Shown one piece after another: positions 1,803-57,706 of a stretch of 64,000 bases of DNA (within the stretch, counting starts at the first letter, position 1; the number at the start of each line of letters is the position of its first letter). The stretch is from a virus. Under the pieces are notes generated by a model. The model was not told the DNA's origin. It worked only from the letters and a program-made list of their open reading frames with translations, and searched no databases. The position numbers and the translations under genes were made by a program. The stretch lies in UHGV virus genome UHGV-1558314; one strand, 5' to 3'.

Positions 1803-1869
1803 TGTGTATGAATGTTCAGAATGTAAATTCACTATATGTACATATAACACGAATATTCAAGTTAGATGC

Positions 1870-5213: not shown

Positions 5214-5483
5214 TCAGATTTTGATATGTCGTAGCAAAATTTTATGCAAATTCAACAATGATTGCGCTGCATATGCTGTATTTGGTTGAAGCTCTTTGCA
5301 GTTGTCGCATTTCAATGACTGCTCAGTTATTTGAGCATCTGTGTCAATGTTAATTGCAGTTTGGCAAACTACACATTGCCATTTAAGCGTATGTGTATGC
5401 AAGTTGTCTACGAACAATGTAGAGCCAAACTTATCTTGCCAGTCTTCTGCGCATTTTGGATGAAACATTGTCAATGAGCCCAA
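5214..5483 (-). CDS. hypothetical zinc-ribbon protein
   Basis: Cys pairs CxxC ... CxxC. Confidence 0.35.
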   Translation of the reverse strand: MGSLTMFHPKCAEDWQDKFGSTLFVDNLHTHTLKWQCVVCQTAINIDTDAQITEQSLKCDNCKELQPNTAYAAQSLLNLHKILLRHIKI

Positions 5484-6472
5484 TTAAGCCATACGTCATC
5501 AATTGATTGCGTAGTATATTCACAATCATACAAGAAATCTACAAGAGCATCATAATTGCGTCTGCCCCACAATTTGTGCTTCAGACTGCCGATTTCTTCG
5601 TCTTTCTTGTAATTGTTGTAGATTCGTTCAAGCATTGCTGAAGAGCCTGCTTTTGTGTCGTACTCTGCCTCAAACAAACAGCCACAACTTGCTTTCTTAA
5701 CAATTATGCGGTCATACATTGACACTACTGCTCGTAAAATGCTCTTTGACTGTAATCGTAGTGTGTCAAGTTTATTGCATTGAGACTCCCATTTTTTGTA
5801 CAATGTGTTGAATGATGGATTGTCAAGTAGCTTGTCTGCAATTGCATACGCAAATGACATTGCATGCCAATCATCTGTTCTGAAGTCCTCTGTATTATGC
5901 TTGTTGTAATATGCGCCAGTCGGTGCACAGCCAATAAATGCTTCAAGCTGTCCAGAATCATTTCGTAATATGCGCAATGAATGCTTATTAAAAAATGACA
6001 CCCATATGCGATTATGCGCAACTATCACAGAATACTTGTTTTCACATTTTGCTGCAGCATCGCTTATTGAACGACAATCAATCTGCTTGCAAATTGATGT
6101 TATGAATGCTGCAAACTCTTCATGCTTCTTGAGCTTGTTTTGTGTGACGTCATACAGATGCAACAGACCATTGACAACAGAGTCAAGCTTAGCTTCATCA
6201 GACTCAAAACTGCCAAATGTTTCAAAGACTCGCATCTCTTTGTCAACAAGCGTTTCTACAATTGCATCAATATCTTTGCTAAGTAGTGTTTTGGGTTCTA
6301 ACGTTGCATGCATAAATGTCAATTGAAGCAATGCATTTGCAGTTTGCTCAGACAACACGTCATTTGCGCGTGCAATGTCGATTGCAGCTTTAAGTTCTGT
6401 TCGTTTGACTTCAAAATATCGTTGCAGCTGTAGTTTAAGTTGCTGAGAGTAGACGTTATTTGGTCTGAGCAT
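5471..6472 (-). CDS. hypothetical protein
   Basis: 333-aa ORF; no recognisable motif. Confidence 0.5.
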   Translation of the reverse strand: MLRPNNVYSQQLKLQLQRYFEVKRTELKAAIDIARANDVLSEQTANALLQLTFMHATLEPKTLLSKDIDAIVETLVDKEMRVFETFGSFESDEAKLDSVVNGLLHLYDVTQNKLKKHEEFAAFITSICKQIDCRSISDAAAKCENKYSVIVAHNRIWVSFFNKHSLRILRNDSGQLEAFIGCAPTGAYYNKHNTEDFRTDDWHAMSFAYAIADKLLDNPSFNTLYKKWESQCNKLDTLRLQSKSILRAVVSMYDRIIVKKASCGCLFEAEYDTKAGSSAMLERIYNNYKKDEEIGSLKHKLWGRRNYDALVDFLYDCEYTTQSIDDVWLNWAH

Positions 6473-6575
6473 ATTTGGGATGGACTCTTACGTTTATTTA
6501 AGAATAAAGTACCACAAGTTGTCAAGTTTTGCTAACTTTGACGATTTGTGGTACGTCTGTTTTGTGCATGCGCAG

Positions 6576-6975: not shown

Positions 6976-7080
6976 TTGTTTTGATGCAAAATGCAAAACA
7001 ATATAAAATTGTTTTGATGCAAAATGCAAAACAATATAAAATTGTTTTGATGCAAAATGCAAAACAATATGTTGTTTTGA
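6976..7080. repeat. 33-bp direct repeat array (about 3.3 copies)
   Basis: ttgttttgatgcaaaatgcaaaacaatataaaa repeated head to tail; unit is partly palindromic (ttgttttg...caaaacaa); immediately upstream of the Cys-rich gene. Confidence 0.8.
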
Positions 7081-7083: not shown

Positions 7084-8988
7084 CTACAAAGATTTGAACA
7101 ATTCCTCGTACGTTACAATTTTCTTGTCTTTTGCAAGTGCAGCTTTCATTTTATTCGACAGTTTGTTGGGGTCATTTGTAACAACATAGTCGCATGCATC
7201 AATGTTTGCACCGACATCTTCAAGCTTACCATTTGCAGCGTCAATAAATGCACCCTTTGTTGCCCAAGTAGGCTTAGGCGAGCCTGTCATGACAACCTTG
7301 ATTGTATCAGCGTTCGTAGATGCTTCTTTGTGCATTTCATTGAACATTACGAAGCATTGCGGGTATTGTTTGAGCAATCTTTGAATGACATTCAACTTTA
7401 TGAGCTTATCAATGGGTTCCATGCTCAAGCCCTTAAAGTCATATTGACAATTGCTGAAGTACGCAGATAACTGATACGCTGCTTTGCTGCCAAGACCAGG
7501 AATCTGCATGCATTCAATGAAATGCGATAAGTGAATGCTATTGAAGCGTTCACGTAAGCCTGTAATGACTGTACGGTCATTTTTGCTGTTCATGTCAAAC
7601 TGTAGCAGCTCAAACAATCGTTCATTGTCAACTTCTTGCACAATGCAGAACAAGTCTTCAATTGTTGGCGCATCAGAGAATGTCAACATGACATCAAGAT
7701 TGTCTTGTGCAATAAGCAAAGCCTCGCAAATTTTCGTAGCATAAACCCAACCAAGCCCATCGATGTTAAGCTTGCAAACGCCTTTGATAAACCTCGTGCA
7801 TCTTGCAAATTCCTCAGGCATCATCAAGTGAATGCCATCGACATATGCATGCACAGGAATGTCAGCTTTGCTGATATCACCAGGTTCAATACATTCTTGA
7901 ATGTCTGGAATAATGTCACCACCCTTTTCAATACGAACAAGAGCACCTGGCCAGATACCATTTGCATGCAAAAAGCCGTAGTGAAATGCAGATGCAGCCT
8001 TGACTGTAGTGCCATCAAGCTCAACAGGCTCAAGTTCAACTCTGGGAAAGAGTTCACCATTGATTCGTTGACGCCAATCAATTCGAATCACTCGAGTTAC
8101 AGCAGACATTGCGTCAAGCTTCAATGCAACCATGTTTGCATATTCTGCTGCATTTGCAAACTGCTGCTCAATCCACAAGTCATCTGCAAAAGGCTTGACT
8201 ACAATGCCATCAATGCGATATTTGAATTCTGAGCGCTCATTGGCAATTTTTGTGCAAGTTTCTGCAAACTCATTGTAATCAGTGACTTCAAAGACTTCTG
8301 CAATAAATTCTGCGGGCCAGCCAACTTTTGCAAGAGCATCTGCAGGATTGGTTTGCTCATATATTTTGTCATCAAGTGTGTCAGTTAGCATGTATGCCAT
8401 AGGGTCAATGTCTTCCATACCACACATATCTAATGACTTCACAAATGCCGCAGCAGTATTGCGCTCATTTTTGTATTTGACTGAGCCATCAGAGTTGAAG
8501 TGATATTTTTGCGCAAAAACGTCTTTTGCAATGACAGCTTCAAAGCGAATCTGATATGGCTGTTCTGCTGCAGCAAGCTGCATCGGCACTTTGCCTGCTA
8601 CGACAAATTTGCGTGTGACATCATAGCCCGTGTAGCCATCACCACGAGTAACAACTTTCAGCAATCTGCCATCAGTGTCGTAATGTGCTTCACAGCCCAT
8701 GCCGTCATACTTGTGCATAAGCAGCATTTCATGACCAACAATGTTGCACACAGTATCATGCAACGCAGTCGTAAACTGTGATTTTGTATGAATTGCAGCA
8801 AGACTCAATGCAGGTGTAAGATGCTTAACTTCTTGCTTATTTGACTCTTCAAAGCGAATCTTATGTTTGATGTCGCTATTTGCAAGAAGCTGCTGTTCAA
8901 GAGCATCAAATGCCTCATCAGACATTATCGGATTGCCTGCATAATACGCAGCTATTGCGTCATGGTACATATTGAGTGTATCAGTCAT
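7084..8988 (-). CDS. ligA: NAD-dependent DNA ligase
   Basis: Adenylation motif HKYDGMG followed by TRGDGYTGYDVT (LigA K-x-D-G ... TRGDG..GEDVT pattern); helix-hairpin-helix-like IPGLGSKAAYQL. Confidence 0.8.
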   Translation of the reverse strand: MTDTLNMYHDAIAAYYAGNPIMSDEAFDALEQQLLANSDIKHKIRFEESNKQEVKHLTPALSLAAIHTKSQFTTALHDTVCNIVGHEMLLMHKYDGMGCEAHYDTDGRLLKVVTRGDGYTGYDVTRKFVVAGKVPMQLAAAEQPYQIRFEAVIAKDVFAQKYHFNSDGSVKYKNERNTAAAFVKSLDMCGMEDIDPMAYMLTDTLDDKIYEQTNPADALAKVGWPAEFIAEVFEVTDYNEFAETCTKIANERSEFKYRIDGIVVKPFADDLWIEQQFANAAEYANMVALKLDAMSAVTRVIRIDWRQRINGELFPRVELEPVELDGTTVKAASAFHYGFLHANGIWPGALVRIEKGGDIIPDIQECIEPGDISKADIPVHAYVDGIHLMMPEEFARCTRFIKGVCKLNIDGLGWVYATKICEALLIAQDNLDVMLTFSDAPTIEDLFCIVQEVDNERLFELLQFDMNSKNDRTVITGLRERFNSIHLSHFIECMQIPGLGSKAAYQLSAYFSNCQYDFKGLSMEPIDKLIKLNVIQRLLKQYPQCFVMFNEMHKEASTNADTIKVVMTGSPKPTWATKGAFIDAANGKLEDVGANIDACDYVVTNDPNKLSNKMKAALAKDKKIVTYEELFKSL

Positions 8989-9221: not shown

Positions 9222-9665
9222 TCATTGCAATTGTTTTTGATACGCTATTAATTCATTAAGCAATTCATCTGCATGACATTGAACAAGCAGTTGCCACGTT
9301 TTTGAATCAATGTCTTCAGTTTGCATGTACAAGTCTACTACTCGTTTGTCAAACTTATTTATTGCATCTACAGTAGCATTACTTGCAGGTTTGTCAACTT
9401 TCTTACCGCTGATAAAAGACCATTTTGGTTGTCTTGCGTTGCCAAGTTCTCTATGATAAGCATTCATAACTTGTGTCATGTCCATACCGAGTTTGTTGAA
9501 TGCTTGAGCAATCTGCGGAAAGGCTATGGCAACATTGCGATTTGTCATGAATGCATTGTCTGCTTTTTGTTTTGCAGTCAACTTATCATAATCGCTATCA
9601 CGAACATACAGCAACTCCTTGAATTTGAAGAAGTCTACTTTTTGTGTGATGAATTGTTCTGCCAT
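9222..9665 (-). CDS. hypothetical protein
   Basis: ORF preceded by the promoter-like motif. Confidence 0.45.
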   Translation of the reverse strand: MAEQFITQKVDFFKFKELLYVRDSDYDKLTAKQKADNAFMTNRNVAIAFPQIAQAFNKLGMDMTQVMNAYHRELGNARQPKWSFISGKKVDKPASNATVDAINKFDKRVVDLYMQTEDIDSKTWQLLVQCHADELLNELIAYQKQLQ

Positions 9666-9688: not shown

Positions 9689-9717
9689 TATAGTACAACA
9701 AAGTTCCCAAATTTGCA
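9689..9717 (-). promoter_or_regulatory. recurrent bipartite promoter-like motif
   Basis: atagtacaacaaagttcccaaatttgcac; gene-sense reading GTGCAAA then ~13 nt then TTGTTGTACTAT, about 20 nt upstream of the start codon. Confidence 0.5.
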
Positions 9718-12622: not shown

Positions 12623-13018
12623 TTATCGATTCTTTGAAAATGAAACTTGTGTTGATTGCTGTGGTCGTATGTCAACAAACACTGAATCTACTGCATCAAA
12701 CTTAAGCGTAGCAAGTGAATCAATTGTTTGTCTTGCTTTTTGCAAATTGCGTGCTTTGATGCCTGATACTGTTGCAGACTTTTCAAGCAGATATGCATCA
12801 CGAGGCGTCCAGTAACGAGCTTGCCAACGCATATGCATAGAGTCGACAATCAGATTTTCTGCTGCAGCATCAATAATTGCTGCAGTTGATTGCTGAGTTG
12901 CATCAAGTCGTTGCTGTAACACCGCCAATTGTTTTGTGTGCTGTTGCTGTTGTTTGAACACTACGCTGATTGCGCCAAATAAAAGAAACCACGCAATAAA
13001 ATGCAAAAATGACTTCAT
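12623..13018 (-). CDS. hypothetical membrane-anchored protein
   Basis: N-terminal hydrophobic segment FIAWFLLFGAISVVF followed by Q-rich region. Confidence 0.4.
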   Translation of the reverse strand: MKSFLHFIAWFLLFGAISVVFKQQQQHTKQLAVLQQRLDATQQSTAAIIDAAAENLIVDSMHMRWQARYWTPRDAYLLEKSATVSGIKARNLQKARQTIDSLATLKFDAVDSVFVDIRPQQSTQVSFSKNR

Positions 13019-13989
13019 GATTGCTGCACGAATTTTGAGAGCTCGAATGATAATGCGAGCATTGTTATGAATTGGTCAATTGATTGTTTCGACTCTACGC
13101 CATATTTGTGAGCTGCAATGACAATGTCTCCAAGTCGTGCAACAAAACCAGGCGTGTTCTTTGATAGCTTTGCATAGCACCAATTTGCAAAGTCAGTTGA
13201 GAGAGCATTGATGACTTCGGTTTCACGACCTTTGTATTGTGACAGTGTTTTGTAAAATTCACGTGGGTCTTTGCATGCAACAATGAAATCATACAGCTCT
13301 TCAAACTTTGCTGACATGCCCTTTGTGACATGCTCAAGCGTTATATGACGCTCACCTTGATTGAAGACAAAGTAGCAAATGTTCAGAATTTTACGGAAGT
13401 CTGGGTAGTTATCTTGAATAAGCTTGATGAGCGCTTCTTTTTCAATGGTACATTCATTTTCCTTCAAGATATTGTAGACGCGAACCATGCATTTCTTCAT
13501 CAACTGTTCTGCGACATCATCAGAAAAGTCGAATGATAACATTTTGAGACGAGATTGAGCAATTGATGCATCAATGCGGTCTGGATAGTTGCAAGTTGCA
13601 ATGAAAAACGCAATGCCTGCAAACTCTTCAATGGTGCCTCTTAAAGCCATCTGACTTTGCGTCGATAAAAAATCCATCTCATCAAGCAGTACCACCTTTA
13701 CGCCACTTGACGACAATGACATATGCTGACAGAATTCTGAAATTGTGTTGCGAACTGTGTCAATGCCAGAATTCTTTGAGCAGTTGATTTGCAGAATTGA
13801 ACGTCTATCAGTCCACTTCAATGCCAATGCTCTTGCTGCGGTTGTTTTTCCACTTCCTGGTGCTCCTGCGAACAAATAATTTTGCGGTTGACCATTAAAT
13901 GCTGCAGCATAATCATCAGGCACAATTAACTCTTCGACTTTTGTTGGCCTGTAGCGTTCTAACCAAGTTCTATCTTTAAGGGATGTCAT
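13015..13989 (-). CDS. sliding clamp loader subunit (gp44 / RFC-like AAA+)
   Basis: WLERYRPTKVEEL, Walker A GAPGSGKTT, Walker B VVLLDEMD, and NYPDFRKILN resembling T4 gp44. Confidence 0.85.
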   Translation of the reverse strand: MTSLKDRTWLERYRPTKVEELIVPDDYAAAFNGQPQNYLFAGAPGSGKTTAARALALKWTDRRSILQINCSKNSGIDTVRNTISEFCQHMSLSSSGVKVVLLDEMDFLSTQSQMALRGTIEEFAGIAFFIATCNYPDRIDASIAQSRLKMLSFDFSDDVAEQLMKKCMVRVYNILKENECTIEKEALIKLIQDNYPDFRKILNICYFVFNQGERHITLEHVTKGMSAKFEELYDFIVACKDPREFYKTLSQYKGRETEVINALSTDFANWCYAKLSKNTPGFVARLGDIVIAAHKYGVESKQSIDQFITMLALSFELSKFVQQS

Positions 13990-14014
13990 TTGTTGTTTGT
14001 TAAATATGAGTATA

Positions 14015-14043
14015 TAATACTACTGACTTGTCAATTTTGCACA
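14015..14043 (-). promoter_or_regulatory. recurrent bipartite promoter-like motif
   Basis: ataatactactgacttgtcaattttgcac upstream of the clamp loader start. Confidence 0.45.
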
Positions 14044-15632: not shown

Positions 15633-18600
15633 TCAAAAGCCTCGATTCATCAGTTCATCAGCAAGTCGTTCAAGTTCAGTAGCAGCCTTTTGTCGCTTGG
15701 CTTCTCTTTCAGCTTCAACATCTGCTTTGCTAACTGGCGATTCCAAGTCTTTTGCAGGCGCATCTTCAATAACAGTCAAATTGCTGTCATCAAACTTGTT
15801 GTCAATGTCAACTCGTTTGAATGATATGATGCCTGATGACACCTGAGCTTCTGCTTGCTGTTTGTCAAATACAAGACTGCTAATCGTTGATTGCAGTTTT
15901 GCAGATGCCAGCAATCGTTCTGTGTTATCTGCAAAAATGTCATCAGTAAACAATACATGCAGCATTTGAGCAATTGAATCACGACTTCTACTGTAACCAC
16001 TGTCAAATGCTGGCAGCTGCTTAATTGCGTAGATATCGCCATCATGTACTGTAATTGCATTGAACATACGTCTTGCAATTGATGCCACAGAATCAAGTAC
16101 GTCTGGTGATTGTGGCGTGTAGCCTCGTGAATCGAAGTATATGAGTGCAGAGTTCTTAACAATTTGGTCGACAACTTCTGATGCAATTGAAACTGCATCT
16201 TTGCTATTGTTGAAGACATCATTCAGCATATATGACACAATCTTGATGTTTGATTCATGCATTGTGCCACTTGAGCCTGCATCAAATATTGACACTGCGT
16301 CTTTGATTGATTTGAGTCTTGCAAGTCGATACATGTCTTTGTTGTCAATGACATACATATCGATAGTCTTCATGATTGTGTCAAACAAGTAATGATGCGA
16401 TAATGTTCGCAATGCATGTCGCCAATCATCAAATACTCGTCTGTCTTCTACAAGATATGTAAGCTTGCCATTTTTCTTGACAAGTTCAAATCTGTCTGAT
16501 TCTTGAACTTGCTCTGCTGGCAAATTCATGATAACTTCGAATGTAGCCTGATTGACAAATGATGCAAACATTTTGCCAATCTTGCTGTTCTTTTCTTGAC
16601 GGTACTCTGCTCGAGCTTCTTTTGCAGCATTGAGAACTTGAGCAATCATCATGTCATCTGCAACAACATCTTGCACGACTTTGCATTCATAGCCATACGA
16701 TGACAATGTGTTCTGAATGATGACAAGCTGAGTAGCCCATTGTCGCCATTTCTGCTCAAACATATTGAGCTTATACGCAGTCAAGTGAATCTTGATTTCA
16801 CCTGTGTACGGGTCACGATAAAAGTACGGTGCATTGAATGCCCATTCAAAGAAATCAAAGAGACTTCTTGAGTCATTGCGCTTTGTCTGCATTTGCAAAA
16901 TGTCCCAGAATGTCAACTTTTCAACATTTGTTAATGTCAAGTCAAGCTCGTCATATGCAGTAATGTTTCGCGGGTCACCATTCGCTTTTGTCATGCTGAA
17001 ATACACATATGACTGAATGGATATTTTGCGAAGCCGTGAATTGAACTGTTCGATTTCTTGACCTGTGAATGCCTCGTCATAAATGACATCAAATTCATAG
17101 CTGTCATTGATATCAATGCCAACTGACAAGTAATTTGTGCAGAATAGCAGTTCAATATCACCGATTGTGCCAGATTCATTGATTGACTGAACAAAGTCAT
17201 GCATTGCATTGTCACGCTTGTAGTACTTGACTTTTGGATTTCTGCCAAGCATCATTCGAACTGCACCAACAATTGCATGAGTAAATGCGTCGCCTTTGTT
17301 TGTTGGGAACAGAATTCGTTTGCCTGCTTTAATTGCTGTTGAGATATGTGATGCAAGTTTTGTAATCTTGTCGCCGTCATGTTTGCAGCAGACAAATCTG
17401 ACACCTTTGTTGTAATTAAGCGGCTTGTCGCAGAATATGACAGTGTCAAAATGACAGAACATGTGTTCAGCTACAGGTGTGCCTGTCATCAAAATGACTT
17501 TTGTCTGCAACTTTGTTAAGTTGTCAATTACATTTGCAGGCACAACATCACGATATGCAGACATTGTCAACAAGTGTGACTCGTCGACGACAACGTAGTC
17601 ATATAAAATTGATACTTCCTCTGGGTCAGCTAATGTAAACTTATCGAATGTCAAAGCTACATTGACATGCTTAGACAATTCAAGACCGCGCTGACCAAAT
17701 GAGCAATACATGCCAAGGTCTGACATCTCAATCTTTGATTGCAAGATTGATGTGTATGGTTCAATCAGCATGACTCGTTTTCCATCACGAGTAAGCTGCT
17801 TGATAAATTCTGTCTTGCCTGAGCCTGGCCGTGCAATCAAGTAATTGATGCCAGTTACAAATGCTTCTTCAAGTTCATGCTTGTATGTTGACAAGTATTC
17901 ATTTTCTGCAAGTTTGAAGACATGCGTATGTCGAAGTTCAAAGTCTTTTTGCTGTGCAACTTTCGACATAATGTACTGACTGATTGCATCTTCTGTATTG
18001 TGTTCAGCAATCAGTTCATTGACAGTTACAGATGACTTGTTAGCAAACTTAAATTTGAAGCCATGCTTTTCACGAAGTTCTTTGACAGATGACCATACGC
18101 ACGGACAAGTACCTGCTGCATTACGTTCAACTGCAGACCTGAATGAGTTTGCCCAGCTGTTATGCTCTGCATTGAACTTTGGATTGCCCGAACACATTTG
18201 CAAGAACATTTGCAACACATGTTCATATTGACCACCTGTAGTTGACTTCAAATCATATAGCCATGCAAGTGTATAGGCCAAGCGATATCTACCAGTGTTA
18301 TCGTAGTTTTGTGGAGTGATTGTGAGCATTGTGCCCTCTTCAATCATTGTGATGTCGTCACGTTGAGTAAAGACTTGCTCGCCGTCAGTCATTGCAGTCA
18401 TATGAGACTTCGGTGCATAATCAAAACGACCTCGAAGTCTATCAAACATTGTCTTTAGTTTGTCGATGCAGAATTTTGCATCAACTGAAGCATAGATGCT
18501 AACATCAAACTCTGGTTGCTCAATGAATTGCGCGTTTTGATTGATGATGACATCTTTATCTCGTGCAACAAACAGTGGCTGACTAATTTTGCAAACGGAT

Positions 18601-19232
18601 GCATCGACTACTCGAGATTCAGACATTTGTCCAGACTTTTCAAGTCGTCTTGACAACGTGTTATTTACAGGATGCACTTCTCGAGCCATGTCATGATTGC
18701 CCTCTGATTCAAGCTGGTCACTCAGCAACACAAGGCATTTCCAAATGACATACAGTTTTGCTTCATATGCATCAAGATATGTTTTCTTTGCTGCAGAAGC
18801 ATTTTCAGATGACACAAATACAGCGTCTTCAGTTTGAATTGACAGAGGCTTTGAGATTGTGTAGACGTGCAAGCCTGAACCAGAAGTTGACTTAAGCACA
18901 GCAACACACCACGGATATTTGCAAAGCATTGCAGCCAAACGTGGTTTGATGACTTCTACAAGTTCTTTTGAGTGAAAGTCCAAATCGACTGGTTGTAGAC
19001 CTGACCAAGTCAAGTAGTCATGAACTTGCTGTTTTGGTCGAGCAAACATTGTCGATTGCGACACAAAGGGACGATGCGCTTTATCTACTGTGTCAAGTGA
19101 CTCATCATTTGCAACTTTCATGATGAGGTCATACAATGAAATTTGTTGCTTATTGACAGTGTCTTCTGTTTTACGAACACTGTCGCCCATCATGAACTTT
19201 ATGCCACTGAGCAAATCTTTGACGTTTGACAT
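15633..19232 (-). CDS. large SF2 helicase-domain protein (possible replicative helicase/primase)
   Basis: Walker A LIARPGSGKTEF, DExH box VVVDESHLL, motif III-like LMTGTP; about 480-aa N-terminal domain of unknown function. Confidence 0.6.
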   Translation of the reverse strand: MSNVKDLLSGIKFMMGDSVRKTEDTVNKQQISLYDLIMKVANDESLDTVDKAHRPFVSQSTMFARPKQQVHDYLTWSGLQPVDLDFHSKELVEVIKPRLAAMLCKYPWCVAVLKSTSGSGLHVYTISKPLSIQTEDAVFVSSENASAAKKTYLDAYEAKLYVIWKCLVLLSDQLESEGNHDMAREVHPVNNTLSRRLEKSGQMSESRVVDASVCKISQPLFVARDKDVIINQNAQFIEQPEFDVSIYASVDAKFCIDKLKTMFDRLRGRFDYAPKSHMTAMTDGEQVFTQRDDITMIEEGTMLTITPQNYDNTGRYRLAYTLAWLYDLKSTTGGQYEHVLQMFLQMCSGNPKFNAEHNSWANSFRSAVERNAAGTCPCVWSSVKELREKHGFKFKFANKSSVTVNELIAEHNTEDAISQYIMSKVAQQKDFELRHTHVFKLAENEYLSTYKHELEEAFVTGINYLIARPGSGKTEFIKQLTRDGKRVMLIEPYTSILQSKIEMSDLGMYCSFGQRGLELSKHVNVALTFDKFTLADPEEVSILYDYVVVDESHLLTMSAYRDVVPANVIDNLTKLQTKVILMTGTPVAEHMFCHFDTVIFCDKPLNYNKGVRFVCCKHDGDKITKLASHISTAIKAGKRILFPTNKGDAFTHAIVGAVRMMLGRNPKVKYYKRDNAMHDFVQSINESGTIGDIELLFCTNYLSVGIDINDSYEFDVIYDEAFTGQEIEQFNSRLRKISIQSYVYFSMTKANGDPRNITAYDELDLTLTNVEKLTFWDILQMQTKRNDSRSLFDFFEWAFNAPYFYRDPYTGEIKIHLTAYKLNMFEQKWRQWATQLVIIQNTLSSYGYECKVVQDVVADDMMIAQVLNAAKEARAEYRQEKNSKIGKMFASFVNQATFEVIMNLPAEQVQESDRFELVKKNGKLTYLVEDRRVFDDWRHALRTLSHHYLFDTIMKTIDMYVIDNKDMYRLARLKSIKDAVSIFDAGSSGTMHESNIKIVSYMLNDVFNNSKDAVSIASEVVDQIVKNSALIYFDSRGYTPQSPDVLDSVASIARRMFNAITVHDGDIYAIKQLPAFDSGYSRSRDSIAQMLHVLFTDDIFADNTERLLASAKLQSTISSLVFDKQQAEAQVSSGIISFKRVDIDNKFDDSNLTVIEDAPAKDLESPVSKADVEAEREAKRQKAATELERLADELMNRGF

Positions 19233-19259: not shown

Positions 19260-19314
19260 AAATTATATTGAATATGATGCAAAATGCATATTCAAATTAT
19301 ATTGAATATGATAC
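19260..19314. repeat. direct repeats aattatattgaatatgat (2 copies) flanking tgcaaaatgca
   Basis: Seen in the intergenic region upstream of the helicase gene. Confidence 0.6.
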
Positions 19315-19334
19315 AACACTTGTGACATTTTTGC

Positions 19335-19976
19335 TTAGAATGCGACACCGACATGTGCGCCAATCATAGCAGCTTTTGAGTCAACTTGCTTCATGCAGCC
19401 TGCATCAAGACCGATACGCCATTGTAAACTACCCTGGCCAAATTGACGAGTGTATGATAGCCAATACATGTCAATTGATTGCTTGTTAAATGTTCCAAAT
19501 GCATAGTGAAAGTCTACATTATTTCGTGGCGCATCATGGTCAATGACTTTGATTGTCGTAGTTTGCACTTCACGAATAACTGTGTCTGCTTTGAACATTA
19601 AAACGTCCCAATCACGTTGCTTGATTGTGTTTTGCGTAATGTAGTCTTTTATTGCTATTTGCAGTTTGTCTGACTTCAATGTGTCTGCGTACTCATATTG
19701 CGCAAAGTAGTCATTGACATATTGCATGAGCATTGTTGTATCGATGTCAACTACAAGTGTAGTGTCACGATACACTGGCACTGGCACAGTTTTGCCTGGC
19801 AATCTTATTGTGTCATGCTTAATGAACGTATCTACTTTGAATGTTGGTTCTGCATTTATAGCGTCTTGATATGTTTGCCAGTCTTTTGGACTAACAAAAT
19901 GCCAATCTTTGAAAATCATGACAGCAGTCAATACAATGACTGTTGTCATGACTATGATTTTGAGTGTCTTCAACAT
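19335..19976 (-). CDS. hypothetical membrane-anchored protein
   Basis: N-terminal TM helix IIVMTTVIVLTAVMIF. Confidence 0.45.
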   Translation of the reverse strand: MLKTLKIIVMTTVIVLTAVMIFKDWHFVSPKDWQTYQDAINAEPTFKVDTFIKHDTIRLPGKTVPVPVYRDTTLVVDIDTTMLMQYVNDYFAQYEYADTLKSDKLQIAIKDYITQNTIKQRDWDVLMFKADTVIREVQTTTIKVIDHDAPRNNVDFHYAFGTFNKQSIDMYWLSYTRQFGQGSLQWRIGLDAGCMKQVDSKAAMIGAHVGVAF

Positions 19977-21578: not shown

Positions 21579-21645
21579 ATTGTCGAAATCTTGTTTGTGT
21601 TATATGTACACAAAACTGCACCAGCAAAATTGCTGGTGCAGCTGG

Positions 21646-21903
21646 TTAATTGTTGAGATACTGTTGAAGTTCTACTTCTGTTGCAAGTCTGCATTGCTTA
21701 ACATTGAACACTGTCACAGCATTGCAACACTTACATTTATGCCAAATTTCAGCTACAGCAGTTTGTTCGTTCTTTGGCAATGAATGTCTGTACTTGACAA
21801 TGTCTGTAGTGCCGCAGCATTTACATGTGCCAAGCACTACATACAATTTTGAGTTAGTCGCGCTCAATTGTGACATGTCTAACTTTTGCTTCTTCATAGC
21901 CAT
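21646..21903 (-). CDS. hypothetical zinc-ribbon protein
   Basis: CKCCG ... CKCCN Cys clusters. Confidence 0.35.
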   Translation of the reverse strand: MAMKKQKLDMSQLSATNSKLYVVLGTCKCCGTTDIVKYRHSLPKNEQTAVAEIWHKCKCCNAVTVFNVKQCRLATEVELQQYLNN

Positions 21904-23275
21904 GCTCTCTTAGCTTTTCAATGAGTGCTTCAACATCTGCTCGATAAGTGTCACGATTGTCAGAACGTTCAACTACTTTGTACTCTTTCTTAAGTTCTAC
22001 AATCTTTGCTTTAAGCTTTTTCTGCTCATCTTGAGTCAATCTGCTGACTGCAATTTCAAGAACTTTGTGATTGATTGAATGCTCATCAAGAATAGACTTG
22101 ACTTGTTTAGTAGTCATCTTATGCAGTACAATGACTTCGTCAAGCACAAGTTGAATGAACTTCATGATGTCTTCATACCACTGAATTGTAGTACGAATGT
22201 CTTCAAGTCGTTTTTGCTTGCGAATTTCATAGAATTGCAAACGCCACTCGACAAATCGCATAATGAGTGAACCGACTGTTTTGTATCGACGAATCTTGTC
22301 ATCGAAGTCAATAACAGTCAAGTTGTCACGTTCAATTCTGCAGAACATTGCAAGAGTCCAGTATAATGAATCTTTTGCAAGCAGTTCAGCAAGTTTTGCT
22401 TTCGTGAACTTTATTTCATACAGAATCTTATCTTTATGCGAGTAGTTTGTCCATGCTTCAATAATGTCGCGGTCAAGCAACATATTGAGATGATTTTCAT
22501 AGCCATCGAATGTGTTGTTGTATGGGATTGCAGTTACATTGACTGTAGTGTCATCAACAACTTCCATTCGACCATGATGCTCATATACACCGTTGACAAG
22601 TTGCCATTCTCCTTGCAAGCCTTTGACATATGGCGTAATTTTACGTTCAGAAATATCTTCGCCATCAAGAGCATCAATAACAGCATTGCAAACTTCAATT
22701 GGATTACGATTGATAATTGTGCTTGAATAGCCAACCGCGATGCCCATAATTGAGTTTAGCAAAATTGTGGGCACAATTGGCAGATAAAATTGCGGCTCAA
22801 CTTCAATGCCCTCTTGCCAACGATTTGTAAGCAGCTCATTGTCTTTCATGAGCAGCTCAAATGCATCTGATAATCGAACAAAGATGTATCGAGGCGCACC
22901 TGCATATGGGCTGTAGAACGTACCAAATTGGCCTTCACCAATGAAATATGGAATGTTCTGCTTAAAGTCCTGAGACATGATTGTTATATTGCCCTCAAGA
23001 CTTGTCTGGCCATGTTCATAGCCGCCCTCTGCTTTCACATAACCCGCAAATGCACCTACAGTTTGCTTAACGCCACCTTTAAGACGCTTAAGTGCAACAT
23101 ACATGATTTTTCGTGCAGTAGGCTTAAAGCCATCACGAACATCAGGTATTGCACGTTCAAATGCTGTGTGTAATGCGTACTCTTTATATCGAGTGTTCAA
23201 AAATTCCGCAATGGAAATTTGAATATCTTGTTCTGTCAATGGTTCTGTATAGACTTCTTGTTTTCGTCGTGCCAT
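21854..23275 (-). CDS. DNA topoisomerase II, DNA-cleavage subunit (GyrA / gp52-like)
   Basis: AIPDVRDGFKPTARKIMYVA matches the GyrA-type signature around the active site; start taken at MARRKQ (ATG at 23275). Confidence 0.85.
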   Translation of the reverse strand: MARRKQEVYTEPLTEQDIQISIAEFLNTRYKEYALHTAFERAIPDVRDGFKPTARKIMYVALKRLKGGVKQTVGAFAGYVKAEGGYEHGQTSLEGNITIMSQDFKQNIPYFIGEGQFGTFYSPYAGAPRYIFVRLSDAFELLMKDNELLTNRWQEGIEVEPQFYLPIVPTILLNSIMGIAVGYSSTIINRNPIEVCNAVIDALDGEDISERKITPYVKGLQGEWQLVNGVYEHHGRMEVVDDTTVNVTAIPYNNTFDGYENHLNMLLDRDIIEAWTNYSHKDKILYEIKFTKAKLAELLAKDSLYWTLAMFCRIERDNLTVIDFDDKIRRYKTVGSLIMRFVEWRLQFYEIRKQKRLEDIRTTIQWYEDIMKFIQLVLDEVIVLHKMTTKQVKSILDEHSINHKVLEIAVSRLTQDEQKKLKAKIVELKKEYKVVERSDNRDTYRADVEALIEKLREHGYEEAKVRHVTIERD

Positions 23276-23305: not shown

Positions 23306-23334
23306 ATTGTACAACATGCAAAACGAGTTTGCAC
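23306..23334 (-). promoter_or_regulatory. recurrent bipartite promoter-like motif
   Basis: attgtacaacatgcaaaacgagtttgcac upstream of the topo II gene. Confidence 0.5.
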
Positions 23335-23544
23335 TGTTTTGATACAACGATGTTATCAGATTTGCACCATTTGAATATCTTCAAATCTGCAAAGCTGTGC
23401 AGTAGACTGAATACGGAATACTAAGAACACACCGCAATCAGTGACACGTTTAACAAGTGCATCTTCATTTGTAGGCGTATACAGTACAACATCCCAAGGT
23501 TCGAGTTGTTTTGCTTCTTCTGCTGTCATATTTGTAGTAATGTT

Positions 23545-24513
23545 TTAGTCGAGCCAATGCAGCATATTCTCGTCATCAAAACGAGATTCAAGCTCAGCAG
23601 TTGTAATGAATGCAAGTTTGTTCAGCATATACTGCTGCAATTCACGTTTGCGAATTGATTCAAATCTGACAAATGTTTCAGGCACTTCAAGTTCACCATC
23701 AGCATCATATGTTGCAACAGAAGTGTCAACATTGATATTGTGAATCTTTTCACATGAAACTCTGTACTTTGTCAAGTCAAAGCCTGGCATGCCATCATTA
23801 CGAGGCAGCAAACTCCACATAGCAAAGTTTTCTACAGCTTCAGCAACAAATGCAAGAGCTTCATGCATGTCAACACTGTAGTCTTCTATAAGATTTGCGT
23901 ATAGTGTAGCTACAATGTTTTGATGTGTTGCAAGGTCAAGCTTATTGCTAATTGCATGCTCAAAAATGTCTTTGAAGTTCTCATACATAGTAAAGTTCTT
24001 CAAGACAAGTCGCTGTAATGCTGTGCGGTCTTCAAGAGCTGCATATGCAGCATCATCATGCATTGCAGAAGCTGCTGCTTGCTGAGCATTCAGTACAACT
24101 GATACATCATGAATGACAAATTTTGAGTCAATCAGCACTGACACTGCAATAAACGGCGCAACAGACTTTGAGTCTTTTTGAGCAAAATCAATTTCAATGT
24201 GAAACGAATTGCCTTGCCGTGACTGCACTGAATGATAAATTTCGTAGTCATTGACGTACAGCTTAAAGTGCTGTTTGATTGCATCATTGACTGCGGTAAT
24301 GCCTGCGTCATAAATGTTGCCGATCACTTCAAGTGCACGAGTGTTAAGTGTATGCGCAAGAAATGCTACATTTTGATAATTGACAAGTTTGTAAGACAAA
24401 TCAGTCGTGTTGTTAAGTTGTCTCATCAAATCATGCAGTGCATCATATGACAATTTGATGTCATCTAATGTGTTGCACTCATGTATTGCGTTAATTTGCT
24501 GTGTCAGAGTCAT
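23545..24513 (-). CDS. hypothetical protein
   Basis: 322-aa ORF. Confidence 0.5.
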   Translation of the reverse strand: MTLTQQINAIHECNTLDDIKLSYDALHDLMRQLNNTTDLSYKLVNYQNVAFLAHTLNTRALEVIGNIYDAGITAVNDAIKQHFKLYVNDYEIYHSVQSRQGNSFHIEIDFAQKDSKSVAPFIAVSVLIDSKFVIHDVSVVLNAQQAAASAMHDDAAYAALEDRTALQRLVLKNFTMYENFKDIFEHAISNKLDLATHQNIVATLYANLIEDYSVDMHEALAFVAEAVENFAMWSLLPRNDGMPGFDLTKYRVSCEKIHNINVDTSVATYDADGELEVPETFVRFESIRKRELQQYMLNKLAFITTAELESRFDDENMLHWLD

Positions 24514-24757
24514 TTTGTGTATGTTGTTGATTTGCTTGTTCTGCTAAGTTGTTTATGAATGCTTTGAGCAATGTAATGATTGTTGTTAGCAACTGAATTT
24601 GAAACAATACAATGCTAAACACGACAATTGCTACAACGCAAAATGAAATGAAGAGCATATTGATGTCAAATTTGTTTGCTATCAATGTTTGCAGCCAAGT
24701 TATGACTGCAAACATTGAAATCAGTATGAATACTTTGTGCTGTGATAACGATTTCAT
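24491..24757 (-). CDS. small hydrophobic membrane protein
   Basis: Two predicted TM segments (FILISMFAVITWL; FISFCVVAIVVFSIVLF). Confidence 0.35.
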   Translation of the reverse strand: MKSLSQHKVFILISMFAVITWLQTLIANKFDINMLFISFCVVAIVVFSIVLFQIQLLTTIITLLKAFINNLAEQANQQHTQNDSDTAN

Positions 24758-25473: not shown

Positions 25474-25496
25474 ATGTAGAGATTTTTGTAGTTTGT

Positions 25497-25592: not shown

Positions 25593-25820
25593 ATCAAATA
25601 CATTATATTGATATATGATAATTGTACTACAAAAATCCCAAATTTGCACACTTTGATAATCAAAAGTGCAAACAAAATTCAAAGTTATATTGTACATCAT
25701 AAAGTGCAAATTTGCACTTTATGATGCTAAAATGCCACAATTTATAACTCTGCAAAATGTCTGCATAAAATAAGCAGCTTAGATTGCTAAGCTGCTGTCA
25801 TTGTATGCATGCAGTCACTG

Positions 25821-27946: not shown

Positions 27947-28077
27947 ATCGATGCAAATCTTTGTAAGGCGTTTGCAATCCTGTAATTTGTTTATGTATTT
28001 TTGTTTGTTTAGTAATTATATGAATATATTACTACAAACATTTATGATTTGCACCATATACTGCAACTTTGTATCAC

Positions 28078-32643: not shown

Positions 32644-32830
32644 ATCTGTAAATTGAGATGTTTGTATATGTATATTGTACAACAAGAATGCAAAACTTGC
32701 ACTGAAAATATACACATTTTCACATAACAGCAAGCATAATGCCAAGCACTACTGCAAGACATATCAAACCTATGCCAAGAACAATAAAGTCCAGTATAGA
32801 ATACGTGTCATTAGACTGTTTCATAAGTAG

Positions 32831-42841: not shown

Positions 42842-42908
42842 TGTAACAGTGCATTTAAGTGTTTTAACAGTTTTATGTATAAATTGTACAACAATGGGCA
42901 AAATTTTG

Positions 42909-42958
42909 CATCAACTCAAAACAGCCAAGCAATGAATTGCTTGGCTGTTTTGAGTTGA
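42909..42958 (-). terminator. long perfect hairpin (about 22-bp stem)
   Basis: tcaactcaaaacagccaagcaa / ttgcttggctgttttgagttga with loop tgaa, upstream of the ribonucleotide reductase promoter-like motif. Confidence 0.5.
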
Positions 42959-43639: not shown

Positions 43640-43667
43640 ATTATACTACAAAGTTGCCAGATTTGCA
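43640..43667 (-). promoter_or_regulatory. recurrent bipartite promoter-like motif
   Basis: ttatactacaaagttgccagatttgcac upstream of the 43150..43605 gene. Confidence 0.45.
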
Positions 43668-47949: not shown

Positions 47950-47990
47950 TGTGTAGTATTGTTTATATGAATATTGTACAATATGCATTG

Positions 47991-48248
47991 CTATTTTGCA
48001 AGATGACAATGCTTACGCCATACTGCAATTTCAACATCTGTAGCAAAATCAAAGTGCAAGCCATGCAATTGTTTCATGTCATATTGACGTCTTGCAATAT
48101 ACTTATTGCCAACTCGCTCAACAACAGAACCAATTTCTACTACATTTTTAGAATGTCGTGGCTCATGTAATGGCACTCTGAATATGTATCTGCCATCTAA
48201 TGTTGACATTATGTCACCATTGTCAATTATGCCTGTTTGCCTGCTCAT
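47991..48248 (-). CDS. hypothetical protein
   Basis: 85-aa ORF. Confidence 0.3.
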   Translation of the reverse strand: MSRQTGIIDNGDIMSTLDGRYIFRVPLHEPRHSKNVVEIGSVVERVGNKYIARRQYDMKQLHGLHFDFATDVEIAVWRKHCHLAK

Positions 48249-50367: not shown

Positions 50368-50407
50368 TGTAGTAGAGGTTTTTGTTAAATTTATTATATA
50401 TGTATAT

Positions 50408-50434
50408 ATTACAACGACAGTGCAAAATTTGCAC
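50408..50434 (-). promoter_or_regulatory. recurrent bipartite promoter-like motif
   Basis: attacaacgacagtgcaaaatttgcac (contains the palindrome cagtgcaaaatttgcactg). Confidence 0.5.
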
Positions 50435-52221: not shown

Positions 52222-52696
52222 TGCACCACTGTTTAAGAGTCACAAAATTGTTGAAGTCTGCATAAAAGTCATCGCCACCGTTAAGCATTGCGACATTCTC
52301 AAGTTCATTGAGAATGATTTGCTTATCAATGACTATTGCAAGAGCGTCAAAGTCTTCTTTTGATTGCAAATCAAGTAGCACAGGATGACCTTTGAGTCTT
52401 GTAGTTAATGTTGTTGGCAGTCTATGCACAGACTTCTTTTTCTTTGACTGCGTAGGATGTTTTGAGCGCTTTCTTGTAGCAGTCAGCTGAATATCATAGT
52501 CAATTTCAAGCAAACCTGCATCTTGCATTACAAAGTTGAGATTGACATACACAGGATGCTTTTGCTGAATGTCTATGAATTCTTGTAATTTGTCGTTTAT
52601 CATTTGAAATGCATTTGTATATGATAATTGTACCACGTATGCATCAACTTTGCACACAAAACAAGACCAACTCAATTGAGCTGGTCTTGCGGTCAT
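52214..52696 (-). CDS. hypothetical protein
   Basis: 160-aa ORF. Confidence 0.4.
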   Translation of the reverse strand: MTARPAQLSWSCFVCKVDAYVVQLSYTNAFQMINDKLQEFIDIQQKHPVYVNLNFVMQDAGLLEIDYDIQLTATRKRSKHPTQSKKKKSVHRLPTTLTTRLKGHPVLLDLQSKEDFDALAIVIDKQIILNELENVAMLNGGDDFYADFNNFVTLKQWCNE

Positions 52697-55307: not shown

Positions 55308-55474
55308 ATTGTGCATCTTCCACAATGATATAGAATCATTGTTAATATTGTATTGATATTGTACAACATGCATTGCATATTTGCAATGATACAACATGCA
55401 AAATGCGCTTGCACTTTGATGCAAAGTGCTGCGTATACAACATGCATCGCGTATTCGCATTTGATGCAATGTCA

Positions 55475-56494: not shown

Positions 56495-56598
56495 GTGTAT
56501 AATTTGTATGAGATTATTGTACAACATGCAAATGCATGTTGCATTTGATGCAAAGTACTGCGTACACAACATAAAGTACAAGTTTGCTTTTGACAGAC

Positions 56599-57621: not shown

Positions 57622-57706
57622 TTTTAATAGCATATTGATAATTATACAACATACAAATGAGTTTTGCATTTTTGATGTAGCAATTGCTTGCACAGTTTGC
57701 AAAAAA

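What the first reader, a model, noticed from the sequence alone, without database searches (positions are those of the whole stretch)
9689..9717. Recurrent bipartite promoter-like motif upstream of most minus-strand transcription units
At least 14 intergenic sites share, in gene-sense orientation, an upstream box GTGCAAA, then 11 to 14 nt, then TTGT(A/T)GTA(C/T)(A/T)AT, ending about 15 to 25 nt before the start codon. Approximate positions: 9689, 14015, 23306, 25620, 32675, 35388, 42877, 43640, 47967, 50408, 52628, 55345 to 55440 (three tandem copies), 56508 to 56570, 57640. The layout is like the T4 middle-promoter arrangement (activator box plus -10 element) but with a different upstream box. 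The same TGCAAA core also appears in the tandem repeat arrays at 6976 and 19260.
Basis: seen in the sequence. Interest (0 to 1): 0.65.

Follow-up and report, generated by a model that had tools for sequence, protein, structure and literature searches.

The report
Phage-specific promoter class in gut phage
The repeated two-box motif is real and is almost certainly the promoter that an uncultivated ~175 kb T4-like human-gut phage uses for its DNA-replication, nucleotide-metabolism and tRNA genes; it has E. coli-like -35/-10 geometry instead of the promoter type of the presumed Bacteroidota host, so a phage-encoded factor probably reads it.

Summary
There are 19 strong sites plus 2 degenerate tandem copies, all on the minus (coding) strand and all between genes or at gene ends. 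The consensus is gTGCAAA-N10-TGTwG-TAyaAT-A..CATATA.

The spacing is fixed, not 11-14 nt. TGCAAA lies exactly 16 bp before TAYAAT, which gives GTGCAA-17-TAYAAT, the classic sigma-70 geometry. Leave-one-out scores are 19-39 bits, against a maximum of 15 in shuffles.

The sites precede the clamp loader, both topoisomerase II subunits, ribonucleotide reductase, the ligase and dNMP-kinase operons, homing-endonuclease-like genes and a six-tRNA cluster. A second, single-box motif (TACATATA) precedes the capsid, terminase and endolysin-like genes. The first motif therefore marks a temporal, early/middle-type promoter class.

The motif is conserved at orthologous positions in relatives whose proteins are only 27-58% identical. 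Genes lack Shine-Dalgarno sites, which fits a Bacteroidota-type host, but the canonical -33/-7 promoter of that phylum is absent.

A 90-95% identical relative encodes a sigma-70 region 2+4 protein outside the window. My best reading is promoters read by host core polymerase plus a phage specificity factor. The T4 middle-promoter analogy is only partly apt. This is a new variant of a known kind, of moderate interest.

The parts
9690..9717 (-). Class I promoter (TGCAAA-16-TACTAT), 24 nt before the ATG of the 147-aa ORF 9222-9665, which heads the operon ending in the NAD-dependent DNA ligase 7084-8988
6506..6533 (-). Weakest class I site (AGCAAA-16-TACTTT), before the 333-aa ORF 5471-6472
14014..14041 (-). 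Class I promoter before the clamp-loader gene 13015-13989
19308..19335 (-). Class I promoter (AGCAAA-16-TATCAT) before the 1199-aa ORF 15633-19232; the leader contains a direct repeat
23306..23333 (-). Class I promoter before the topoisomerase II medium subunit gene 21854-23275
23339..23366 (-). Second class I copy, 33 nt upstream of the copy at 23306
25621..25648 (-). Strongest class I promoter (42.9 bits) before the 239-aa ORF 24754-25473; its 147-nt leader contains a 16-nt tandem repeat
25689..25716 (-). Upstream tandem class I promoter; its box is part of the perfect palindrome ATAAAGTGCAAATTTGCACTTTAT
28026..28053 (-). Class I promoter before the six-tRNA cluster 26760-27946
32674..32701 (-). 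Class I promoter before the topoisomerase II large subunit gene 30649-32643; conserved in relatives L038 and L040
35389..35416 (-). Class I promoter before the 76-aa ORF 35112-35342
42883..42910 (-). Class I promoter before the intein-containing ribonucleotide reductase gene 39620-42841
43640..43667 (-). Class I promoter before the 151-aa ORF 43150-43605; terminator 43708-43737 lies just upstream
47973..48000 (-). Class I promoter before the 551-aa nucleotidyl-transferase-like ORF 46294-47949
50406..50433 (-). Class I promoter before the 290-aa ORF 49495-50367; its box lies inside the 25-nt palindrome 50415-50439, a terminator-like hairpin for the upstream gene
52627..52654 (-). Class I promoter before the operon 52214-52603 / dNMP kinase 51538-52221 / SIS-domain gene; terminator 52661-52690 lies immediately upstream
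55358..55385 (-). Best of three tandem class I copies; followed by a ~60-nt transcribed stretch, terminator 55269-55298, then the 650-aa ORF 53270-55222
55386..55413 (-). Degenerate tandem copy B (TGCAAG-16-TATCAT)
55432..55459 (-). Degenerate tandem copy A (TGCGAA-16-TATACG)
56516..56543 (-). Class I promoter before the homing-endonuclease-like gene 55475-56494
57641..57668 (-). Class I promoter before the 344-aa ORF 56599-57633; terminator 57707-57737 lies upstream

Best explanation
These sites are one class of phage promoters. They drive the early/middle-type genes (DNA replication, nucleotide metabolism, tRNAs, homing endonucleases) of an uncultivated ~175 kb T4-like phage from the human gut.

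The architecture is a -35-like box gTGCAA(A), a spacer fixed at 17 bp (16 bp counted from TGCAAA), an upstream extension TGTwG with an invariant G at -13, a -10 hexamer TAyaAT, and a CATATA start-site region. Transcription would start about 5-9 nt after the -10 hexamer.

The sites do not resemble the -33 TTTG / -7 TAnnTTTG promoters of the presumed Bacteroidota host. I therefore propose that host core RNA polymerase carrying a phage-encoded specificity factor reads them. The most likely factor is the sigma-70-family protein (regions 2 and 4) that this phage lineage encodes outside the window, with region 4 contacting GTGCAAA and region 2 contacting TAYAAT. A separate single-box class (TACATATA) serves the late genes.

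Shown: the motif, its geometry, its positions, its conservation, the partition between gene classes, and the sigma gene in a near-identical relative.

Inferred: that the sites are promoters (about 0.9), the host phylum (about 0.8), and which factor reads them (about 0.45).
For: Evidence that the sites are promoters:
- All 19 sites are on the coding strand and lie between genes or at gene ends.
- The spacing is fixed.
- In the -10 hexamer, A at position 2 is present in 19/19 sites and T at position 6 in 18/19.
- Leave-one-out scores are cleanly separated from background.
- One site precedes a cluster of six tRNA genes, so the motif is not a translation signal.
- Strong intrinsic terminators sit directly upstream of the sites at 52627, 43640 and 57641.

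Evidence for a temporal class:
- Downstream genes include the clamp loader, topoisomerase II subunits, ribonucleotide reductase, the ligase operon and the dNMP kinase operon.
- The capsid, terminase, endolysin-like and large unknown genes instead carry TACATATA, often right after a terminator.

Evidence for conservation:
- The motif is found before the orthologous topoisomerase II and 239-aa genes in L033, L038, L039 and L040, although the proteins are only 27-58% identical. TGCA, TGT, G and A..AT are invariant in the alignment.
- The spacer is 1 bp longer in L038.

Evidence that the sites are not of host type:
- Only 1 of 57 gene starts has a Shine-Dalgarno-like 4-mer. Leaders are A-rich with A at -3, as in Bacteroidota (PMC6847099).
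- The closest capsid and topoisomerase relatives infect Chryseobacterium, Tenacibaculum, Flavobacterium and Prevotella.
- TTTG-N17-23-TAnnTTTG is not enriched in the window and does not occur before genes.
- The Chryseobacterium phage MA9V-1 does carry TAnnTTTG before its orthologous genes.

Evidence for a phage factor:
- The 90-95% identical contig IMGVR_UViG_3300045988_152288 encodes a 298-aa protein that passes Pfam gathering thresholds for Sigma70_r2 and Sigma70_r4.
- Group 2 (gp23-type) jumbo phages are reported to encode sigma factors and no RNA polymerase (PMC7824862).
- The sigma gene in that relative has a different, MA9V-type promoter with a -7-like box, ATGTGACA-N9-TAAATTTA-TATAAC. 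This fits a cascade from host sigma to phage sigma to class I.
Against: - There are no transcription start data.
- The host is inferred, not known.
- The sigma gene was seen only in a close relative and not in the window. Nothing links it specifically to class I rather than to the late class. In T4 and probably in MA9V-1, the phage sigma serves late genes.
- In MA9V-1 the sigma gene itself carries the same promoter type as the replication genes. This suggests that type is read by host sigma.
- Class I shares its layout with the MA9V-1 promoters: an upstream box, 16-17 bp, then TAy. Class I could therefore still be a host-sigma-dependent derivative.
- Many sites have a partial inverted repeat of the box (TGCAAA..TTTGCA). 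This could mean that a dimeric DNA-binding protein recognises the box rather than sigma region 4.
Confidence: 0.45

Rival explanations
1. These are early promoters read directly by the host primary sigma factor. The motif would simply be this phage's strong version of a host promoter.
For: - The genes served are of the kind that T4 expresses from host-sigma early and middle promoters.
- The layout (box, 16-17 bp, then TAy with G at -13) parallels the MA9V-1 promoters. Those contain a canonical Bacteroidota -7 box and also drive the MA9V-1 sigma gene.
- About 12 of 19 sites have an A, and many have (T)TTG, in positions reminiscent of nAnnTTTG.
Against: - No register of the motif gives TAnnTTTG together with a -33 TTTG.
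- If the host uses E. coli-type promoters, the -35 box matches TTGACA at only 3 of 6 positions, and generic sigma-70 matches are not enriched.
Confidence: 0.2
2. This is sigma appropriation, as at T4 middle promoters. Host sigma would read the TAYAAT -10, while a phage activator (with or without an anti-sigma co-factor) binds GTGCAAA in place of the -35 contact.
For: - The layout is bipartite, with a non-host upstream box and a sigma-70-like -10.
- The box is often part of an inverted repeat centred near -28.5 (25699-25722, 50415-50439 and others), as expected for a DNA-binding protein.
- Two adjacent window proteins (239 aa and 322 aa) share a C-terminal module with the C-terminal extension of the MA9V sigma factor (hhalign 90.8% and 70%). 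They are candidate transcription co-factors. The 239-aa gene has the strongest tandem class I promoters.
Against: - The box lies 16 bp from the -10 at every site in the window (17 bp at two L038 sites). The T4 MotA box lies 11-13 bp away and has a different sequence (own knowledge of T4).
- Pfam found no MotA or AsiA family among 47 unannotated window ORFs, and PHROGs hits on 29 queried ORFs named no such factor.
- The spacing of the inverted-repeat partner varies (0, 1, 2 or 5 nt). That argues against a fixed dimer site and for hairpins or a history of duplication.
- The role of the 239-aa and 322-aa proteins is speculative. Their structure models were unusable.
Confidence: 0.2
3. The sites are not promoters. 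They would be repeated operator or protein-binding sites, or recombination cassettes spread by duplication, with no role in initiation.
For: - Tandem copies lie 33 nt apart.
- The promoter-upstream sequence is duplicated at 55421-55440 and 56545-56565.
- There is a 33-nt array at 6976-7070 with related TTTGCATCAAA units.
- T4-like phages are known to carry mobile terminator-promoter cassettes (PMC4122927).
Against: - Those known cassettes are themselves promoters.
- The strict orientation, the canonical -10 hexamer, and the fixed distance to gene starts or to the tRNA cluster all fit initiation.
- The sites are conserved at orthologous positions across relatives with only 27-58% protein identity.
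Confidence: 0.04

Closest known systems
Bacteriophage T4 early and middle promoters (host sigma-70; MotA/AsiA for the middle class)
   Same: - A phage-specific consensus is repeated before prereplicative genes and tRNA genes of a gp23-type myovirus.
- A sigma-70-like -10 is combined with a non-standard upstream box.
- A separate single-element late class serves the structural genes.
   Different: - The box sequence is GTGCAAA, against GTTTAC (T4 early) or TGCTTtA (MotA box).
- The box lies 16-17 bp from the -10, like a -35 element, not 11-13 bp like a MotA box.
- No MotA or AsiA was detected in the window.
- The presumed host phylum does not use -35/-10 promoters at all.
Phage-encoded sigma cascades (Bacillus phage SPO1 gp28 and gp33/34; sigma factors of group 2 jumbo phages, PMC7824862)
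   Same: - Bipartite phage-specific promoters would be read by host core polymerase plus a phage sigma with DNA-binding regions 2 and 4.
- The lineage encodes such a sigma.
   Different: - No experimental link exists between this sigma and this motif.
- The consensus sequences are unrelated.
Promoters of Chryseobacterium phage MA9V-1 (seen here): ATGTCAAA-N9-TAnnTTTG-TAyTATAA
   Same: - The genes served are orthologous (topoisomerase II and others).
- A similar upstream box (TGTCAAA against GTGCAAA) lies 17 bp, against 16-17 bp, before a TAy element with G at -13.
- The sigma gene of the window's close relative keeps this promoter type.
   Different: MA9V-1 carries the canonical Bacteroidota -7 box TAnnTTTG in the spacer. 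The window's class I sites have TGTwG there and no -7 box.
PeSL composite terminator/early-promoter cassettes of T4-like phages (PMC2839356, PMC4122927)
   Same: - A short conserved promoter is repeated many times.
- Several copies lie directly after a stem-loop or terminator (52627, 43640, 50406, 57641).
- Tandem and duplicated copies occur next to homing-endonuclease-like genes.
   Different: - The sequence is unrelated.
- A role in recombination or shuffling was not tested.
- Many sites have no adjacent stem-loop.
Bacteroidota primary-sigma promoter (-33 TTTG / -7 TAnnTTTG)
   Same: It is expected for the presumed host. Leaders lack Shine-Dalgarno sites, as in this phylum.
   Different: Neither element is present in class I in any register.

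Membership tests
Sigma-70-family -35/-10 promoter | Two conserved elements separated by 17 +/- 1 bp | tested here: met
   GTGCAA-17-TAYAAT at all 19 sites. TGCAA-N16-GTAnnAT occurs 17 times at N=16 and 0-3 times at other N. The spacer is 1 bp longer in relative L038.
Sigma-70-family -35/-10 promoter | -10 hexamer TAnnnT with near-invariant A at position 2 and T at position 6 | tested here: met
   T 19/19, A 19/19, A 18/19 at position 5, T 18/19 at position 6.
Sigma-70-family -35/-10 promoter | -35 hexamer resembling TTGACA | tested here: not met
   GTGCAA matches TTGACA at 3 of 6 positions. Generic TTGACA/TATAAT matches are not enriched: 62 found against 52.7 expected.
Sigma-70-family -35/-10 promoter | Upstream of, and co-oriented with, transcription units | tested here: met
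   19/19 are on the coding strand and intergenic or at a gene end. Most lie 7-75 nt before the ATG, and one precedes the tRNA cluster.
Sigma-70-family -35/-10 promoter | Transcription starts 5-9 nt downstream of the -10 | not testable with these tools
   No transcriptome exists and no host is cultured.
Bacteroidota primary-sigma promoter | -7 box TAnnTTTG with -33 TTTG about 19-21 bp upstream | tested here: not met
   8 matches against 4 expected in the window, and none before genes. TAnnTTT[GA]TA is absent from gene-sense intergenic sites. The box is present in MA9V-1.
T4 middle promoter (MotA/AsiA) | MotA box (a/t)(a/t)(a/t)TGCTTtA centred at -30, 11-13 bp from the -10 | tested here: not met
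   The box here is gTGCAAA, spanning -35 to -29, 16 bp from the -10. The T4 values come from my own knowledge.
T4 middle promoter (MotA/AsiA) | Phage encodes MotA-like activator and AsiA-like anti-sigma proteins | tested here: inconclusive
   Pfam found no such family in 47 window ORFs, and PHROGs hits on 29 queried ORFs named none. About two thirds of the genome was not examined.
T4 late promoter (gp55) | Single -10-region element, no upstream box, before late genes | tested here: not met
   Class I always has the upstream box and precedes replication-type genes. The separate TACATATA class fits this description.
PeSL terminator-promoter cassette | Stem-loop terminator directly adjoining a repeated early promoter | tested here: inconclusive
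   This holds at 52627, 43640, 57641 and 50406 but not at most other sites. A role in recombination was not tested.

The most novel reading that the evidence does not exclude
A lineage of T4-like phages of gut Bacteroidota has replaced host-type (-33/-7) promoters on its replication genes with an E. coli-like -35/-10 promoter. That promoter would be read only by a phage-encoded sigma, possibly together with the 239-aa and 322-aa proteins that carry a module fused to sigma in phage MA9V-1. The sigma gene itself would keep the ancestral host-type promoter. The result would be a self-contained, orthogonal transcription cascade in a phylum whose polymerase normally ignores -35/-10 promoters.
Probability: 0.35. 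Interest if true: 0.65.

Novelty: new variant of a known kind. Interest (0 to 1): 0.45.

Why it matters
[quoted passage not shown] A clean 19-site consensus plus a distinct late motif gives an immediate operon and timing map for an abundant uncultivated gut phage family.

If a phage sigma reads the motif, the pair would be a candidate orthogonal expression system for Bacteroides engineering. It would also be a natural example of promoter-type replacement during phage evolution, when compared with MA9V-1.

If the host sigma reads the motif, it would widen the known promoter repertoire of Bacteroidota.

Tried and rejected
- A megablast of 5 kb against the phage collection gave no match. The phage is uncultivated.
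Nothing was found.
- A profile of MA9V-like sigmas hit only the C-terminal module of the 239-aa and 322-aa proteins, not regions 2 or 4.
- Profiles of these two proteins gave no usable match to PDB sequences.
- AlphaFold single-sequence models of the two proteins had pLDDT 35 and 48, so no fold search was run.
- I scanned 185,579 species genomes for the capsid protein and for the exact motif, looking for host clues. The capsid gave no relative, and the motif gave only single scattered hits.
- I tried to identify the unrelated Shine-Dalgarno-using phage contigs that carry cacGTGCAAA-N16-TATAAT. The protein I chose was DnaK, which is uninformative.
- Literature searches for the motif string returned only primer noise. 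A search for structures of Bacteroidota promoter complexes found nothing relevant.
- I considered the motif as a reverse-oriented or re-registered Bacteroidota -33/-7 promoter. I rejected this because no register supplies TAnnTTTG.
- I considered that CATATA, rather than TAYAAT, is the true -10. I judged this less likely because CATATA is much less conserved (11-16 of 19) than TAYAAT.

Full report
**What the window is.**
The window is the first 64 kb of a ~175 kb contig assembled from human-gut metagenomes (ENA ERZ27260853 k119_42272; the same proteins occur in a ZEEV15 sample). It has no near match among 50,697 phage records.

It encodes a gp23-type capsid protein, a T4-type large terminase, both topoisomerase II subunits, an intein-containing ribonucleotide reductase, an NAD-dependent ligase, a clamp loader, a dNMP kinase, DHFR and six tRNAs. 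Almost all of these are on the minus strand.

The nearest cultured relatives (35-38% identity for capsid and topoisomerase) are Chryseobacterium phages MA9V-1/2, 'Sphingomonas' phage PAU and Tenacibaculum phages. Flavobacterium phage MaF61 and the Prevotella Lak phages are more distant.

Only 1 of 57 gene starts has a Shine-Dalgarno-like 4-mer. Leaders are 43% A and 10% G, with A at -3 in 30 of 57. This is the pattern described for Bacteroidota (PMC6847099). The host is therefore inferred, not shown, to be a gut Bacteroidota.

**The observation.**
An iterated weight matrix gives 19 sites, all on the minus strand. The only plus-strand hits are mirror images of two palindromic sites.

The spacing is strictly fixed. 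TGCAA starts exactly 16 nt before the downstream box at all eleven seed sites. TGCAA-N16-GTAnnAT occurs 17 times at N=16, against 0-3 times at any other N from 8 to 23, and 0 times on the plus strand at N=16.

The consensus is gTGCAAA-w-tTg-N7-TGTwG-TAyaAT-A-tt-CATAtA. Taking TAYAAT as -12 to -7:
- TGCAAA lies at -34 to -29.
- With its preceding G it aligns to a -35 hexamer (GTGCAA) with a 17-bp spacer.
- G at -13 is invariant.

Leave-one-out scores are 18.8-39.1 bits. The next best minus-strand windows score 7.8 and 6.0; these are the two degenerate tandem copies at 55386-55413 and 55432-55459. The best score in 50 shuffles is 14.8.

No site lies inside a gene. Four overlap only the last 1-11 nt of the upstream ORF. 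About 90% of the window is coding, so the motif is clearly not equally frequent in coding regions.

**Why these are promoters.**
- All sites point in the direction of the downstream genes. The -10 ends 7-75 nt before the ATG at most sites.
- The site at 28026 precedes six tRNA genes, not an ORF. This excludes a translational signal.
- Strong intrinsic terminators lie directly upstream of the sites at 52627, 43640 and 57641. The 25-nt palindrome at 50415-50439 follows the stop codon of the preceding gene. In the close relative this palindrome keeps its pairing through a G-U-compatible change.
- The genes served are replication, nucleotide-metabolism and tRNA genes, plus homing-endonuclease-like genes.
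- A second motif, TACATATA(A/C), has no upstream box. It precedes the capsid gene, the terminase gene (on the plus strand), an endolysin-like gene and several large unknown genes, often right after a terminator.

Two motif classes that partition between gene functions are what a temporal transcription programme of the T4 kind looks like.

**Conservation.**
- The 174.6 kb IMG/VR contig 3300045988_152288 is 90-95% identical over the aligned loci and carries the same sites.
- In L033 (capsid 74% identical) and in L038, L039 and L040 (topoisomerase II 55-58% identical), the motif is found before the orthologous topoisomerase II gene and before the orthologue of the 239-aa gene. The 239-aa protein itself is only 27-34% identical.
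- In an alignment of eight such regions from five genomes, TGCA, TGT, G and A..AT are invariant while the flanks vary.
- L038 has the spacer lengthened by 1 bp. L040 has a variant: GTGCAC ... GTGTAGAC-TATTATAAT.

**Comparison with host-type promoters.**
The canonical Bacteroidota pattern TTTG-N17-23-TAnnTTTG is not enriched (8 found, 4 expected) and does not occur before genes. Generic E. coli-type matches are not enriched either.

In MA9V-1, whose host is a known Bacteroidota, the orthologous genes carry ATGTCAAA-N9-TAnnTTTG-TAyTATAA. This combines a canonical -7 box with a similar upstream box 17 bp before a TAy element with G at -13. Its late genes carry TATAAATA-like elements.

The window's class I therefore looks like a relative of the MA9V-1 layout in which the host -7 box has been lost.

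**Candidate trans-acting factors.**
Pfam found no sigma, MotA, AsiA, gp33 or gp55 family in 47 unannotated window ORFs, and PHROGs hits on 29 queried ORFs named no transcription-initiation factor.

Starting from the annotated MA9V-1 sigma (PMC10537231), a profile search found a module-less 302-aa sigma in gut contigs (P0171). Its 57%-identical homologue lies in the window's near-identical relative (L045 10001-10897). That homologue passes the Pfam gathering scores for Sigma70_r2 and Sigma70_r4.

That sigma gene lies in a part of the genome outside the window. It is preceded not by class I but by an MA9V-type promoter, ATGTGACA-N9-TAAATTTA-TATAAC.

The literature states that gp23-type 'group 2' jumbo phages encode sigma factors and no RNA polymerase (PMC7824862).

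Separately, the adjacent window genes 24754-25473 (239 aa) and 23545-24513 (322 aa) share a C-terminal module with the C-terminal extension of the MA9V sigma (hhalign 90.8% and 70%). This fusion pattern hints at a role in transcription, but their structures could not be modelled.

**Mechanism.**
I am confident (about 0.9) that the sites are promoters of an early/middle-type class. Which protein reads them is inference.
- **Preferred (0.45): phage sigma.** The phage sigma with regions 2 and 4 directs host core polymerase to GTGCAA-17-TAYAAT. A bipartite promoter with fixed 17-bp spacing suits a two-domain sigma. The sites lack host-type elements. The sigma gene has a different, host-like promoter.
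- **Rival (0.2): host sigma alone.** This is supported by the parallel with MA9V-1, where the same promoter type also drives the sigma gene.
- **Rival (0.2): MotA-like appropriation.** This is supported by the frequent partial palindromes over the box. It is weakened by the variable spacing of those palindromes and by the -35-like position of the box.
- **Rival (0.04): a non-promoter role.** This is unlikely.

**Comparison with known systems.**
The closest are T4 early and middle promoters, phage sigma cascades such as SPO1, and the PeSL terminator-promoter cassettes of T4-like phages (PMC2839356, PMC4122927). The tandem, 33-nt-spaced and duplicated copies next to homing-endonuclease-like genes resemble the PeSL cassettes.

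The motif fails the sequence and spacing criteria of the MotA box, and it fails those of the Bacteroidota -33/-7 promoter. It is a new consensus within a known kind of element.

**Verdict.**
Its one interesting feature is sigma-70-like geometry in a phage whose presumed host phylum does not use such promoters. Interest is 0.45.

Noticed in passing
window 59728-59735, 1839-1846(+), 1833-1840, 46192-46199, 45325-45332, 39548-39555, 21601-21608, 26326-26333, 49421-49428: There is a second recurrent motif, TACATATA(A/C), without an upstream box. It lies in gene sense before the capsid, terminase, endolysin-like and large unknown genes, often right after a terminator. It is probably the late promoter class. 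A weaker CATATA also follows the -10 of class I sites by 3 nt. Relatives L033, L043 and L045 use the same motif.
   Followed up: partly
window 25496-25584: A perfect 16-nt tandem repeat (TATCAATTGCATTCTA, 5.6 copies) lies inside the 147-nt leader between the strongest class I promoter and the 239-aa gene. It is a possible regulatory array.
   Followed up: no
window 55269-55298 (minus strand): A strong intrinsic terminator lies about 60 nt downstream of the triple class I promoter and before the 650-aa gene. This suggests a short RNA or an attenuated leader. There is no Rfam match.
   Followed up: partly
window 24754-25473 and 23545-24513 (minus strand): Two adjacent genes (239 aa and 322 aa) share a ~45-110 aa C-terminal module with the C-terminal extension of the Chryseobacterium phage MA9V sigma factor (hhalign 90.8% and 70%). 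The module is split off in this lineage, whose own sigma lacks it. The function is unknown.
   Followed up: partly
L045 10001-10897 (IMGVR_UViG_3300045988_152288, outside the part homologous to the window): The near-identical relative encodes a 298-aa sigma-70 region 2 + region 4 protein. Its promoter is of the MA9V type, ATGTGACA-N9-TAAATTTA-TATAAC, with a -7-like box.
   Followed up: yes
window 6976-7070: A 33-nt array of 2.9 perfect copies lies between the ligase gene and the next gene. In gene sense it reads ..TTTTGCATTTTGCATCAAAACAA... The element TTGCATCAAA also sits just upstream of the class I boxes at 55414-55430 and 56545-56560. The array period equals the spacing of the tandem promoters.
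   Followed up: partly
window 25699-25722 and 50415-50439: Perfect palindromes of 24 and 25 nt are built around the box (AAAGTGCAAATTTGCACTTT; CGACAGTGCAAATTTTGCACTGTCG). A similar one occurs in the relative (L028, around position 1840). They may be a terminator hairpin or a dimer binding site.
   Followed up: partly
L013, L016, L021, L024/L010 (IMG/VR contigs of 267, 202, 50 and 32 kb): These unrelated phage contigs have strong Shine-Dalgarno sites and 44-48% GC. They repeatedly carry cacGTGCAAA-N16-(TG)gTATAAT before genes. The same -35-like box is therefore used by other phages of non-Bacteroidota hosts. Their identity is unknown.
   Followed up: partly
window 55475-56494; also 39620-42841: A homing-endonuclease-like (HNH) gene with its own class I promoter sits just downstream of the capsid gene. 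The ribonucleotide reductase gene contains an intein. Both are mobile elements within core genes.
   Followed up: no
window 61883-62076: A long GGTTCT / GGTTCTGGTTCC repeat (about 26 hexamer copies) lies inside ORF 61807-62556. Read on the gene's (minus) strand as AGAACC it encodes an Arg/Thr/Glu/Pro low-complexity stretch (frame not checked), consistent with the Pfam Trypan_PARP (Glu-Pro repeat) hit.
   Followed up: no
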